From contig NC_133618.1 of NCBI RefSeq assembly GCF_048593235.1, forward strand, positions 178,029,162 to 178,093,161: a stretch of DNA of 64,000 nt. The letters are read 5' to 3'. This document shows positions 25,865 to 64,000 of this stretch, piece by piece. The position numbers and the translations under genes are program-made. Each line of letters opens with the position of its first letter. Within the stretch, counting starts at the first letter, position 1. Under the pieces are notes generated by a model. The model was not told the origin of the DNA. It did no database searches and was given only the letters and a program-made list of their open reading frames with translations. This DNA is from Sminthopsis crassicaudata. Lineage: Eukaryota.

Positions 25865-26022
25865 TCAGGAAGGTTGTGGATGACTCTTTGTCCTCTTTTT
25901 TGTGTTTTTCTCACAGCACAGTTTTTCCCCAAAGCACATGGATATCATGATTTCATTTTCAAGACAACGCACCCGACAGAATCCCTTGGGCTTCCAACAC
26001 ACATGGGTAAATCTGCTCCTGA
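25865..26022 (-). CDS. Beta-defensin gene C exon 2 (paralogue of gene A, DEFB108-like)
   Basis: Acceptor tttctttgtgtag|TC AGG. Translates (V)RSRFTHVCWKPKGFCRVRCLENEIMISMCFGEKLCCEKNTKKRTKSHPQPS*, spacing C-x6-C-x3-C-x9-C-x5-CC. Confidence 0.95.
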
Positions 26023-39191: not shown

Positions 39192-39316
39192 CTATTTTTT
39201 TAAGTAGCAACAGTACATACTTTGCCTACAGAGTCCAGTGGCTATTTCTTCAATTTTACATTTTTTGCGACATTTTCCACGCCCAAGTCTGCATGTGGCA
39301 CAGATCCCATAGGCAC
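39192..39316 (-). CDS. DEFB105: Beta-defensin 105 orthologue, exon 3 (mature peptide)
   Basis: Acceptor (T)39 ggtgcag|GT GCC. Translates (G)AYGICATCRLGRGKCRKKCKIEEIATGLCRQSMYCCYLKK*. The extra N-terminal CxxC and LGRGKCRK match human DEFB105 as I recall it (GEFAVCESCKLGRGKCRKEC...). Confidence 0.93.
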
Positions 39317-59493: not shown

Positions 59494-59553
59494 GGGTGCT
59501 TGGTTTCATGGAGTACTCTGATATCTGTTGATCTTCTTCTGGAGATTTCTGCC

Positions 59554-59611
59554 ATGAGGACCCTTCCTTTTCTCTTTGCTGTTTTCTTCTTTTTGACTCA
59601 AGCTAACTCAG
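59554..59611 (+). CDS. DEFB106: Beta-defensin 106 orthologue, exon 1
   Basis: gccATG; 58 nt encoding MRTLPFLFAVFFFLTQANS+G, donor GTAAAA. Human DEFB106 begins MRTFLFLFAVLFFLTP as I recall it. Confidence 0.93.
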
Positions 59612-60312
59612 GTAAAATGTATCTTTCTGTAGGAATAGGTCAGATATAGACTGGAGAAATTTGGGTTATTCTCTTGTGAGAGAAAGCACTTCCATCAGTG
59701 TAAAATCATAAATGACTAGACAGGTCCTTGGAACCACAGGGACAGCTATTAACAGAAATAATGTCATATATTTCTTGGAGATTTATACTTTGAAATACAT
59801 TATGTTAAATAATGGTAGTTTTTGTGACTCAGATTGTCACATACATAGGGTATTGGGAAAGTTATATCTGCTCCCCAAACTTCAGTTTTCACACCTCTTG
59901 ATGTGGGAAAAGGGAAGTGACCTAAAAACATATTAAAGGTTCAGTAATTAATAGGCAGTAAGAAAGATGACCTAGAAGAGAGAGATGAGATAAAGGGAAG
60001 GAAAAATAAGAAAGGAATAAAATATATCAAAGAGAATATTCTGTGAATTTCATCCCTCTCCCCTCTGCAACTTCCTCCCTCCTCCCATTGAATTTCTGAA
60101 GCCAATCTCAGCCCTGGTGATATAGTCTGGGAGCAGTTTGAAAGCCTGAAACTTATATATTTACAGAATATCCTTTCTCATATCCTCAGTAGCTATAATT
60201 TAGCAATTATAAATAAACATTATGTACCAGGCACTATGCTAACTGCAACAATCTGGTCAAAAGCAAAACAGTTCTGTCCTCAAAAAGGGGAGATAATAGG
60301 AGTATATATATG

Positions 60313-60316
<4 letters not shown>

Positions 60317-60380
<64 letters not shown>
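60317..60380. repeat. (TA)32 microsatellite in the DEFB106 intron
   Basis: 64 nt of perfect TA repeat. Confidence 0.98.
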
Positions 60381-60381
<1 letters not shown>

Positions 60382-60840
60382 TCCTACATATATAAAATGA
60401 ATACAAGATAATGTTAGGAGAGAATACTAACAATTAGGAGAGAGGGTGCAGATCAGGAAAAGATCCTTATGGAAAGTGGTACTTGAACTTTGAAAGAAAG
60501 CAGGTATTCTTTGAGGCAGACAATCCATGTCTATGCACTCTAGACATAGGGAAACCAGATAAATCTGTAGATGAATATTTAGAAAAAGCTGTTTGCTTTG
60601 ATGATGCCCTATATGGTATTCCTATTTGTTAGAATTCAAGCCTAAGCTGATTGTCTGAATACCTCTTGATGTGGAAGGAATGACATTAGGGAAACAGTAT
60701 TGTCTTGTTCTCTTCTCATGAAGGTCAGGGCTGGGCTGAGCAGCCAGCAATTATTCAGGAACCGGGTCCAGGAATTATATAAGAAAATCAGCAATGTTTT
60801 ACTAGGGAAATAATTTTTGTGACTCCTTCCACTTATATAG

Positions 60841-60977
60841 TTGGAGCTGGATTGCTTGATGAGAAATGTCACCATTACCAGGGGAGATGTACGAATATGT
60901 GTCAGATAAATGAAGATATTGTCGCTCTCTGCAGCAAATTTCAACAATGCTGCAAACTGATAGAGCCATGCCACTGA
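60841..60977 (+). CDS. DEFB106: Beta-defensin 106 orthologue, exon 2
   Basis: Acceptor ccttccacttatatag|TT. Translates (V)GAGLLDEKCHHYQGRCTNMCQINEDIVALCSKFQQCCKLIEPCH*. DEKC, NE.I.ALC and the C-terminal I.PC seventh Cys match human DEFB106 as I recall it (FFDEKCNKLKGTCKNNCGKNEELIALCQKSLKCCRTIQPC). 64-aa precursor, intron 1229 nt. Confidence 0.95.
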
Positions 60978-61004
60978 CTTCGCAGGATCTGCTGTGCTCC
61001 TGAC

Positions 61005-61432
61005 TGTGTGACTCAGAAATGGTGAGGGGTCACTATTTAATAATAAAAAAAAAATCTGGAGAGATCTCTAGAAGCAAAGCAAAGTTTATTATATGTTCTC
61101 AAGAGATTGGGTGTCCCACTTGGAGAGCAGGCAATGGAAGGGAGGAGGCACCTTCTGGGGGCAGCATAAACACTTTAATCCCTAACACAAAGACTCATTC
61201 TCATTGGCTGAGGGTGTCATTTTAAACACCAGAATTATCTAAGAAACTGAACTCGATCAACAAGTATACAGTTGCCCATATTTGATTGAAATAGGGAGTA
61301 TAGCAGGAAAGGGACTTAAGTATGCCCTTGAATCAATGCTCAAAGACCTTCAGGCCTACTCCAACTCTGAAGTAGATGAAGCCTTACTCAATTTTCACAA
61401 ATCTCTTGAGAGATCTCACCTCATCTCCTTCA
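61005..61432 (-). mobile_element. 3' LTR of a class I ERV
   Basis: On the minus strand, PPT AAGAGGGGGG (61435-61444) then AC, then TGAAGGAG. CCAAT at 61203-61207, LTR AATAAA at 61085-61090, U5 ending ...gagtcacaCA at about 61005. The left boundary is inferred. Confidence 0.75.
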
Positions 61433-64000
61433 GTCCCCCCTCTTATTTGTATACTGAGATCTCTTCAAATTTTTGTAACATAACTTCACATTCCCTATCT
61501 AATTCCTTATCCCCTTCTGGCTCCTGTCTCTCTTCCTTGGGCTCTGGCTCCCACCCTTTTAGCACCATCAATCTAACAGACCCTTCAGCTTTCCCTTCCA
61601 ATCCAATCATTCTGGATAATGAGATTTGGACTATTCTAGTTATCAATCAGATCTAGTGCCTTAGCTGTCTGATTGATGATAATCTCTACAACTGCTTGAA
61701 GNNNNNNNNNNNNNNNNNNNNNNNNNNNNNNNNNNNNNNNNNNNNNNNNNNNNNNNNNNNNNNNNNNNNNNNNNNNNNNNNNNNNNNNNNNNNNNNNNNN
61801 NNNNNNNNNNNNNNNNNNNNNNNNNNNNNNNNNNNNNNNNNNNNNNNNNNNNNNNNNNNNNNNNNNNNNNNNNNNNNNNNNNNNNNNNNNNNNCCCCAAC
61901 TTCCATCTTGAGCCCAGGTGGTTGGCACATGCTCTGTTCAGGAAGAAAGAAAAAAAATTGGCCTTATTAATGCAATATAACAGATCCCTGTCCAATAAAG
62001 AGGTAGGTGAGTATACTGTGAGGTCAAAATGAAATTCTTAGGGGGAAATATATCAGCTCCCAAACAGGTGAAGAGGTAATAAGAAGAGTGTTCCTATTCA
62101 GTGGAGGCCCCATCCTCAAAATGTAATTTTAGGTCTCCCTATCTTCAACTGTCCACTCTGATAAAGGTGGTACCACAGGTCCTTTTGTTCTGGTGTGATG
62201 TGTCCAGCCTCGTTCCTGGGTCCGAATTGCAGTGTCTAAGGTCAGTATCACCTGGTAAAGTCCGTCCCAGCATGGAGTCAACTTCTCATCCTTCCAGAAT
62301 CGGATCAACACTCAATCTTTAACCTGACTTCTATGAACAGGGAAACCTAGCGGAGGAGTCTGAGCTATTAACCCTTTTGTTGTAGTTCTTAAAATATTGT
62401 ACCAATGATTTAACATATCTCTTAGGAAATACATCTTTTGTCCCTAAAATAGGGTCCCAGTTTCCCATATGATAAACCTGGAAAGTATGACTATACAATA
62501 ATTCACAAGGTGAAAGCCCAATATCTCTACCTAGTTTGGTTCTGATTCTGACCAGAGTGAGAGGAGGCATTTAGTCCAAGGTAGTTGGGTCTCTAAAGAT
62601 AACTTAAGTCAGCTGCTGTTTTATTTCTTGATTCATCCTTTCTACTTTCCCAGAAGGAGGAGGATACCAAGGGGTGTGGAGATCACAAGTGATTTCTAAG
62701 ATCCTAATCAGATTCTGCAATATTTGGGCAAAAAACTGTGTTCCGTGATCAAAGTCTATCCTTTCTACTATTCCATATCTGGGAACAATTTGTTCTAATA
62801 AGACTTTACTTACTGTCAAGGCAGTTGCCCGGGCTGAGGGAAATGCCTCCATCTATAAGGTCAAATGGTTCACTATGGCCAGCAAGTATTTGAAGCGACT
62901 CACTGGTGGCATCTCAGTGAAGTCCACCTGGATGCTTTGGAAAGGTCTGATTCCTGGAGGTCATCCCCATTTTGGGACCTGGCATTAAGCAGCCTTGTTA
63001 ATCCTTCGACAAATGAGACAGCCATCCACCAGTTGTCAGGCCATATAATATAGGCCAGGGGAAACATGCCTTGTCAGTACAGCATGACACAGGTTTTGGA
63101 CATCCCAGTGACTGCCCTGGTGCAGTTGCTGAAAGACCAGTCTCATATTTGCTTTGGTCAGTACTTCTCTGCTGTCAGGTAAGAGCCATCATCCCTTCCA
63201 AGTTCTCAACTGCTCCGAGAGTTGAGGCCTTTTCTTTTTCCTTCTGGGTAAAACTGGGAGAGGGCAGACTAGGGGATAGTACAGGTATCAAGGCCATTAT
63301 AGGAGCCAGCTCCTGGTCTCCGGCTCCCTTGACTTCCTCATTTGCTAATCAGTTTTTCCTTGCCTCAAAAAAATTTCCCATCTGATGTCCCTTTACTGCT
63401 ATATAGCTAGGAGCCAGAATGTTTTCCAGTACCTCTCTGACTAATGTATGATGGACTAGTTCTTTACCCTTACTATTTACAAACTCTATTTCTTTCCAAA
63501 TCCTTCTAAATACATGCACCACACCCCAGGCATATTTAGAATCAGTGTATATAGTCCCTTCTTGGTCCCTTAATAATTTCAACCCTTGATTTAAGGCATA
63601 TAATTCACAAGTTTGAGCTGACCAATGGGCAGGTAGACTGCCCTTAGTAACATTGGAAGTTTTATCTCCATCCACAATAGCAAACCCATTTTTCCTTTTC
63701 CCATCTACCATTCTAGAAGAGCCATCTATAAACCAATTTAATCCCCATTGGCCATTTTGGTACTTTTGTTTGAAAATCAGTTAACTTTAAACAACAATGT
63801 GCAATTTGAAGGTATCTTCTACTCCTGTGTTATCAGAGTCAAACCCAGAGTACTTCCTCATGCTAGCTTTAGTCTACTCAGATATTTGGCTGGTGACTCA
63901 TCCTTCCCCTGAGTCACCCCAAAGGCCTTTTTCATGTTCTGTGCCTTTGGCACTGCATTTTGAATTCTCGTAATTGTCAGTTTTGGTTTCTGGAAGAGGA
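61433..64000 (-). mobile_element. Class I ERV internal region (HERV-I/ERV3-like): gag CA remnant, RNase H, integrase, env TM remnant; degenerate and deleted
   Basis: gag MHR-like VPKAQNMKKAFGVTQGKDESPAKYLSRL (about 63800-64000). RNase H WFIDGSS...WSAQTCELYALNQGL...GTIYTDSKYAWGVVH. Integrase VPRYGIVERIDFDHGTQF...GKVERMNQEIK and WDGLYQVILT. Env PTTWAQDGSW...LQAVVEII.NQTAKALDLI. Continues past the window end. Confidence 0.92.
61702..61893. other. Assembly gap (192 N)
   Basis: Run of N inside the ERV env remnant. Confidence 1.

What the first reader, a model, noticed from the sequence alone, without database searches (positions are those of the whole stretch)
60978..61432. ERV LTR inserted 27 nt after the DEFB106 stop codon appears to supply its polyadenylation signal and points a promoter back into the gene
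The antisense 3' LTR (PPT-defined start at 61432; inferred CA end at about 61005) begins almost immediately after the TGA at 60975-60977. The first downstream AATAAA (61042-61047) lies inside the LTR's U5, read on the opposite strand. The native 3' UTR would have been displaced beyond the provirus, so an intact immune gene would depend on a retroviral sequence for 3' end formation. The LTR promoter (CCAAT at 61203-61207) is oriented to transcribe antisense across exon 2.
Basis: partly seen in the sequence, partly recalled or inferred. Interest (0 to 1): 0.7.

Follow-up and report, generated by a model that had tools for sequence, protein, structure and literature searches.

The report
Retroviral end inside a defensin mRNA
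An old, broken retrovirus sits backwards 27 bases after the stop codon of a marsupial beta-defensin 106 gene, the spliced RNA runs into the viral end, and that end likely supplies the gene's polyadenylation signal: a real but ordinary case of a known kind.

Summary
The anatomy is confirmed. A defective class I provirus lies antisense to a two-exon DEFB106-like gene (NCBI label: fat-tailed dunnart). Its 3' LTR spans 61005-61432, 27 nt after the stop; 30 of 30 family loci end at that edge. The sister LTR lies about 4 kb on (11.6% different), with a 3-of-4 target-site match. One spliced contig (1 of 4 runs laid, depth 2.9) joins exon 1 to exon 2 and reaches 61013, so LTR sequence is in the mRNA. 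No signal hexamer precedes that point; the first is AATAAA 61042 in antisense U5, followed by a U-rich tract that is the LTR's own signal read backwards. Use of this site is inferred, not shown: no data gave a 3' end. The hexamer is a family trait (43 of 49 copies), not a local invention. Antisense promoter activity is unsupported: the orientation is right, but a G-rich box is missing and the LTR's own signal lies before the gene. The pre-insertion 3' end could not be identified. Transposon-derived poly(A) sites are common; the minus-strand LTR class is the rarer one. New member of a known kind; modest interest.

The parts
59554..59611 (+). DEFB106-like exon 1 coding part (signal peptide), phase-1 donor at 59612
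   Evidence: loose end of the X1 contig matches 59580-59609
60841..60977 (+). DEFB106-like exon 2 coding part to TGA; six-cysteine beta-defensin motif plus a seventh Cys
60978..61004 (+). host-derived 3' UTR, 27 nt, ending in the target-site copy TGAC (61001-61004)
61005..61432 (-). 3' LTR (428 bp, TG...CA) of a defective class I provirus; U5 end faces the gene
61005..61013 (+). LTR bases reached by the spliced contig
   Evidence: run X1 record 1, 0 differences
61019..61027 (+). 5' splice-site-like motif ATG|GTGAGG in antisense U5 (function untested)
   Evidence: core in 45 of 49 copies
61042..61047 (+). AATAAA, predicted poly(A) signal of the gene, overlapping a 10-A run (61045-61054)
61085..61097 (+). 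U-rich tract, predicted downstream element; 61085-61090 is the LTR's own AATAAA on the minus strand
61174..61207 (-). LTR core promoter remnants: CCAAT 61207-61203, TATA-like GATTAAA 61180-61174; the G-rich segment between them is missing
61433..61447 (-). polypurine tract
61448..64000 (-). broken internal region (continues to about 65019): integrase pieces 62129-62308 and 62604-62849, RNase H 63349-63777, Gag p30 piece 63858-64037

Best explanation
A defective class I provirus lies antisense 27 nt after the DEFB106-like stop codon, the spliced mRNA runs into its 3' LTR, and the gene likely ends there by using an AATAAA on the reverse strand of U5. Shown: the insertion, its edges, the intact ORF, and LTR bases in a spliced transcript. 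Inferred: CPSF would read AATAAA 61042, cleavage would fall near 61060-61076, and the LTR's own signal read backwards (TTTATTATATGTT, 37 nt on) would act as the U-rich downstream element. This back-to-back pair came ready-made with the virus family, so the insertion likely was tolerated because it brought a replacement 3' end. Its age is roughly 10-20 million years on borrowed rates. The LTR promoter points at the gene but likely makes little or no antisense RNA over it.
For: Edge and target site. Spliced contig 59542-59609 + 60839-61013 with 0 differences; exon 2 is single-copy in the assembly, so the contig is not from a retrocopy. None of 13 hexamer variants lies between the stop and 61013; the first is 61042. 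The 65-nt stop-to-signal distance resembles 2 of 4 neighbouring defensin exons (50 and 106 nt). 43 of 49 copies carry the antisense AATAAA and 40 of 49 carry it together with the reversed own signal, 32-37 nt apart in 38 of those 40. The stop is at the same place in koala and bilby orthologues, so the protein was not cut.
Against: No poly(A) tail or 3' end was seen. The contig stops 29 nt before the hexamer and is one record at depth 2.9 in 1 of 4 runs laid; contigs cannot show ends. Run X3 holds exact or near-exact pieces of this LTR beyond the predicted cut (61072-61349), and X2 and X3 hold intron pieces: DNA, nascent, read-through or antisense RNA, not told apart. T content 20-60 nt after the hexamer is only 0.30. 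The other 2 of 4 neighbouring defensins have no canonical hexamer within 390 nt. A donor-like motif 20 nt upstream could damp the site. In human, LTR-derived sites are strongly plus-strand biased and antisense ones are weaker (PMC2553571, PMC3517506, passages). Survival of the hexamer is no sign of selection: it is a family trait.
Confidence: 0.68

Rival explanations
1. The hexamer at 61042 is weak or unused; the mRNA reads through the LTR and ends at a later signal in the provirus (61994, 64107, 65055, 65265) or at several sites.
For: Exact LTR pieces beyond the predicted cut in X3; modest U content and an upstream U1-like site; antisense LTR sites are weaker in human (PMC3517506, passages).
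Against: In X1, the only run with the spliced form, nothing was laid on 61016-61235, which is not proof. The hexamer is canonical and has a U-rich tract at a usual distance.
Confidence: 0.17
2. The mRNA splices from the donor-like motif at 61021/61022 over the provirus to host DNA and uses a host signal; the LTR is then a short exonised piece, not the terminator.
For: ATG|GTGAGG motif 44 nt after the stop, close enough that the mRNA would escape nonsense-mediated decay by the usual 50-nt rule (rule recalled).
Against: No such joint or loose end among those shown (30 loose ends not shown). No candidate acceptor and terminal exon were identified.
Confidence: 0.08
3. The LTR's main effect is regulatory: its promoter fires across exon 2 and produces an antisense RNA that tunes the gene.
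For: Orientation; CCAAT and TATA-like box retained; unspliced pieces over intron and exon 2 in X2 and X3; other copies of the family are abundant in those runs.
Against: The G-rich box present in 43 of 48 copies is missing here, and CCAAT-to-TATA spacing is 22 nt against 39-42 in 38 of 41 copies. The LTR's own AATAAA at 61085-61090 is intact and lies between the predicted start (about 61150) and the gene. Contigs give no strand.
Confidence: 0.07

Closest known systems
Transposon-derived poly(A) sites in 3'-most exons (Lee, Ji, Tian 2008, PMC2553571; passages)
   Same: An LTR holds the whole predicted site region of a host gene; 639 human sites are LTR-associated, 219 of them ERV1.
   Different: Those are mostly the LTR's own plus-strand signal; here it is the reverse strand of U5. 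Those sites were mapped from transcripts; this one is not.
TE-derived termination sites (Conley and Jordan 2012, PMC3517506; passages)
   Same: ERV LTRs terminate host transcripts, at or near canonical ends.
   Different: Sense LTRs are enriched and stronger; this is the rarer antisense class.
TE-derived signals in immune genes, e.g. the L2 signal in IL18R1 (review PMC13709765; passages and section 2.2)
   Same: A TE hexamer shapes the 3' end of a defence gene; the review stresses that a hexamer alone does not prove use.
   Different: There it makes a truncated isoform; here the protein is unchanged and only the UTR is replaced.
HERV-H LTR signals of HHLA2 and HHLA3 (recalled, not read here)
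   Same: A provirus-derived LTR supplies the main 3' end of a cellular gene.
   Different: Recalled as sense-orientation use of the native LTR signal.
Dasyurid class I ERVs (PMC11334065, PMC4408412; passages)
   Same: Dasyurid genomes are ERV-rich; a devil ERV1 family has 4-nt target duplications; gamma-like clades have LTRs in the 281-469 nt range given for all eight clades.
   Different: The devil ERV1 solo LTRs described are 589-711 nt, against about 430 here. Assignment to a named clade was not tested.

Membership tests
Class I (gamma-like) endogenous provirus | Two related LTRs with TG...CA ends | tested here: met
   428 and 437 bp, 373 of 422 aligned sites identical, sisters in a 49-copy tree with support 0.825
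Class I (gamma-like) endogenous provirus | Target-site duplication | tested here: met
   4 bp with one mismatch; family length 4 bp in 17 of 17 solo-type copies
Class I (gamma-like) endogenous provirus | Polypurine tract before the 3' LTR | tested here: met
Class I (gamma-like) endogenous provirus | Primer-binding site after the 5' LTR | tested here: inconclusive
   TGG-start sequence 4 nt after the LTR resembles a tRNA-Pro site; resemblance recalled, not tested by a tool
Class I (gamma-like) endogenous provirus | MLV-type gag and pol domains in order | tested here: met
   4 of 9 stop-free pieces hit Gag_p30, RNase_H, rve, MLVIN_C in proviral order; only RNase_H passes the curated cut-off
Class I (gamma-like) endogenous provirus | Placement by reverse-transcriptase phylogeny | not testable with these tools
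   no RT match; the Gag p30 piece lies about 80 nt from the RNase H piece
TE-derived poly(A) site | TE sequence is part of the mature host mRNA | tested here: met
   spliced contig reaches 9 nt into the LTR; one record only
TE-derived poly(A) site | Signal hexamer and downstream element lie in the TE | tested here: met
TE-derived poly(A) site | Mapped cleavage site within or 40 nt from the TE | not testable with these tools
   all 18 listed runs are contigs, which show no ends
TE-derived poly(A) site | Site absent from orthologues that lack the TE | not testable with these tools
   no relative genome held; only proteins of orthologues were seen
DEFB106 / Defb15 orthologue | Six-cysteine beta-defensin motif, two-exon layout | tested here: met
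DEFB106 / Defb15 orthologue | Closest relatives are DEFB106/Defb15 | tested here: met
   7 of 10 looked-up hits are named beta-defensin 106, 106A-like or 15; 1 'beta-defensin', 1 uncharacterised, 1 unnamed; sole PDB match is human beta-defensin 106
DEFB106 / Defb15 orthologue | Conserved gene order in the cluster | tested here: inconclusive
   four other defensin-motif exons nearby, not named
LTR promoter insertion (antisense) | Promoter oriented into the gene | tested here: met
LTR promoter insertion (antisense) | Family-typical core promoter intact | tested here: not met
   G-rich box missing, spacing halved
LTR promoter insertion (antisense) | LTR-initiated transcripts that read into the host flank | not testable with these tools
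   no stranded reads

The most novel reading that the evidence does not exclude
This dasyurid LTR family (at least 2,000 candidate copies) carries a built-in two-way terminator, in which each strand's AATAAA supplies the other strand's U-rich element. At DEFB106 it became the only working 3' end of a conserved male-tract defensin, while selection wore down the promoter that faces the gene (12 private changes against 2 in the sister LTR over that half of U3).
Probability: 0.2. Interest if true: 0.55.

Novelty: new member of a known kind. Interest (0 to 1): 0.3.

Why it matters
If confirmed it is a clean, datable marsupial example of a provirus replacing a gene's 3' end without touching the protein, in the less common antisense orientation and in a laboratory marsupial. 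The paired LTRs and relatives with or without the insertion would allow a direct test of how a host tolerates an insertion in a terminal exon. It does not change general understanding: thousands of TE-derived poly(A) sites are known in human.

Tried and rejected
(1) LTR ending near 61057, hexamer host-derived: rejected. (2) Hexamer newly evolved at this locus: rejected; 43 of 49 copies have it and the nearest outside copy L042 has the same AATAATAAA (11 of 60 loci dropped first: 4 duplicates, 7 with no end motif found). (3) Insertion truncated the protein: rejected. (4) The two LTRs come from different insertions: unlikely; mutual best hits, sisters, 3-of-4 target site. (5) AATCAA at 65553 as the decayed native signal, 120 nt from the stop on a host-only count: kept only as a lead, because 72% of 120-nt windows hold a one-mismatch hexamer. 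(6) No listed holder is on record as RNA. 15 of 18 runs hold next to none of the words; this is no evidence on expression. (7) Lack of X1 cover past 61013 is not used as evidence. (8) No silent-stretch control was obtained (one search gave no result), so the unspliced pieces in X2 and X3 stay unexplained and the far flank was not examined for RNA. (9) Word-index protein searches found only the protein itself. (10) One search had a faulty end-gap setting and was replaced. (11) Earlier findings: none. (12) Paper searches found no paper on this locus; one found nothing. Subscription journals are not covered, and no supplements were opened.

Full report
The gene. The window holds a two-exon beta-defensin: ATG at 59554, phase-1 intron 59612-60840, TGA at 60975-60977. 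The 64-aa product is in NCBI as beta-defensin 106A-like of Sminthopsis crassicaudata. It matches Pfam Defensin_beta_2, and its only PDB match is human beta-defensin 106. Of 16 library hits (including itself) I aligned 12 and looked up 10; 7 are named DEFB106 or Defb15. Koala and bilby proteins stop at the same position (...EPCQ...ESCQ against ...EPCH), so the insertion did not shorten the protein. Exon 2 with its flank is single-copy in the assembly. Four other defensin-motif exons lie within about 56 kb upstream and 11 kb downstream.

The insertion. A search of the genome with 60950-61480 gave 2,306 candidates, 40 scored. The best hit is a second LTR at window-equivalent 65020-65456, and the reverse search returns this LTR first. 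The two are sisters in a tree of 49 copies (support 0.825). They differ at 49 of 422 sites (K2P 0.127; 0.109-0.116 on the multiple alignment). The target site is TGAC against TGAA; solo copies show the family makes 4-bp duplications (12 perfect, 5 with one mismatch, of 17). The 3.6-kb interior is broken: 4 of 9 stop-free pieces match Gag p30, RNase H, integrase core and the MLV integrase C-terminus, and the Gag piece abuts RNase H, so a large part is missing. With the devil rate of 5.95e-9 per generation and 1-2 year generations (PMC11128018 and bioRxiv 10.64898/2026.03.30.708387, passages) the age is about 10-20 million years; a 4-year generation, my assumption, gives about 40.

RNA evidence. 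Eighteen runs were listed, all contigs, all only guessed to be RNA; 3 hold the stretch or part of it. Four were laid on 60400-61700. Run X1 has a 243-nt record matching 60839-61013 without a difference, whose 68 remaining letters end in sequence identical to exon 1 (59580-59609). It is therefore a spliced transcript, and it reaches 9 nt into the LTR. It stops without a loose end at depth 2.9, which says nothing about the true end. X2 and X3 hold unspliced intron pieces, and X3 holds exact or one-difference pieces of this LTR from 61072 to 61349, beyond the predicted cut. These may be DNA, nascent RNA, read-through or antisense RNA; I have no control to tell them apart. High depth over the LTR in X2, X3 and X6 comes from short pieces shared with other copies.

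The poly(A) signal. None of 13 hexamer variants lies between the stop and 61013; the first is AATAAA at 61042-61047. Since the mRNA reaches 61013, it must end in or beyond the LTR. Candidate cut dinucleotides are TA 61069, CA 61075 and CA 61080. The tract TTTATTATATGTT begins 37 nt after the hexamer, and its first six letters are the LTR's own signal read backwards. This arrangement is inherited: 43 of 49 copies have antisense AATAAA in the last 70 nt, 4 ATTAAA, 2 neither (one of the 43 lies in a microsatellite), and 40 of 49 have both elements. The sister LTR has ATTAAA. Against use: T content 20-60 nt downstream is only 0.30, a donor-like motif sits 20 nt upstream, and later canonical hexamers exist. 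Two of four neighbouring defensin exons have AATAAA 50 and 106 nt after the stop; two have none within 390 nt. I put use of this site as the main 3' end at about two in three.

The displaced flank. DNA beyond the 5' LTR is single-copy apart from one 36-45 nt stretch. On a host-only count its first canonical hexamer is ATTAAA at 936 nt, and an AATCAA with TGTA before it and a GU-rich stretch after it lies at 120 nt. That would fit a decayed native signal, but 72% of 120-nt windows hold such a near-match, so it is a lead only. No relative's genome was held.

The promoter. CCAAT (61207-61203) and a TATA-like box (61180-61174) face the gene. A G-rich segment found in 43 of 48 copies is missing, and the spacing is 22 nt against 39-42 in 38 of 41 copies. 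A transcript starting near 61150 (inferred from the TATA position) would meet the intact LTR signal at 61090-61085 before it reached host DNA. Private changes are even between the two LTRs overall (22 against 17, p 0.52) but 12 against 2 in the promoter half of U3 (p 0.013, one of four segments chosen by hand). This hints at erosion of the gene-facing promoter but is post hoc.

Comparison. About 8% of human poly(A) sites are TE-associated and 639 are LTR-associated, with a strong plus-strand bias (PMC2553571, passages). Antisense LTR sites exist and are weaker (PMC3517506, passages). Antisense ERV strands carry many predicted signals (PMC1794541, passages). A recent review covers TE-derived signals in immune genes and requires 3'-end evidence (PMC13709765, passages and section 2.2). 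Dasyurids are ERV-rich (PMC11334065, passages). It works like a TE-derived poly(A) site; membership awaits a mapped cleavage site. Searches found no paper on this locus within the held library; PMC11711154 (passages) mentions DEFB106 only for human copy number.

Verdict. Real feature, anatomy exactly as reported, LTR shown in the spliced mRNA by one contig, signal use likely, dependence and antisense transcription not shown. New member of a known kind; interest 0.3.

Noticed in passing
window 61019-61027 (+): 5' splice-site-like ATG|GTGAGG in antisense U5, 44 nt after the stop; its core is in 45 of 49 family copies.
   Followed up: partly
window 61151-61292 (-): 12 changes private to the gene-side LTR against 2 in its sister over the promoter half of U3 (p 0.013, post hoc); 11 of the 12 are shared with at most 2 of 46 other copies.
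   Followed up: partly
L031 1020-1456 (window-equivalent 65020-65456): The 5' LTR lacks the TATA-like segment, while the 3' LTR lacks the G-rich segment: each has a different deletion in the core promoter.
   Followed up: partly
L031 1553 (window-equivalent 65553): AATCAA with upstream TGTA and downstream GU-rich bases, a possible decayed native signal; not above chance.
   Followed up: partly
window 4744-4830, 25913-25999, 39207-39293 (all -); L031 8174-8260 (+): Four more beta-defensin cysteine-motif exons with open frames; not named.
   Followed up: no
L006-L016, L018-L030: A young subfamily of this LTR, with nearly identical copies on the tree, each preceded by a polypurine tract, suggests a recent burst of proviruses in this genome.
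   Followed up: no
window 61254: One X3 contig (depth 3.8) reads T for C, the letter held by the sister LTR; a possible allele or an error.
   Followed up: no
window 60302-60380: Long (TA)n microsatellite in the defensin intron.
   Followed up: no
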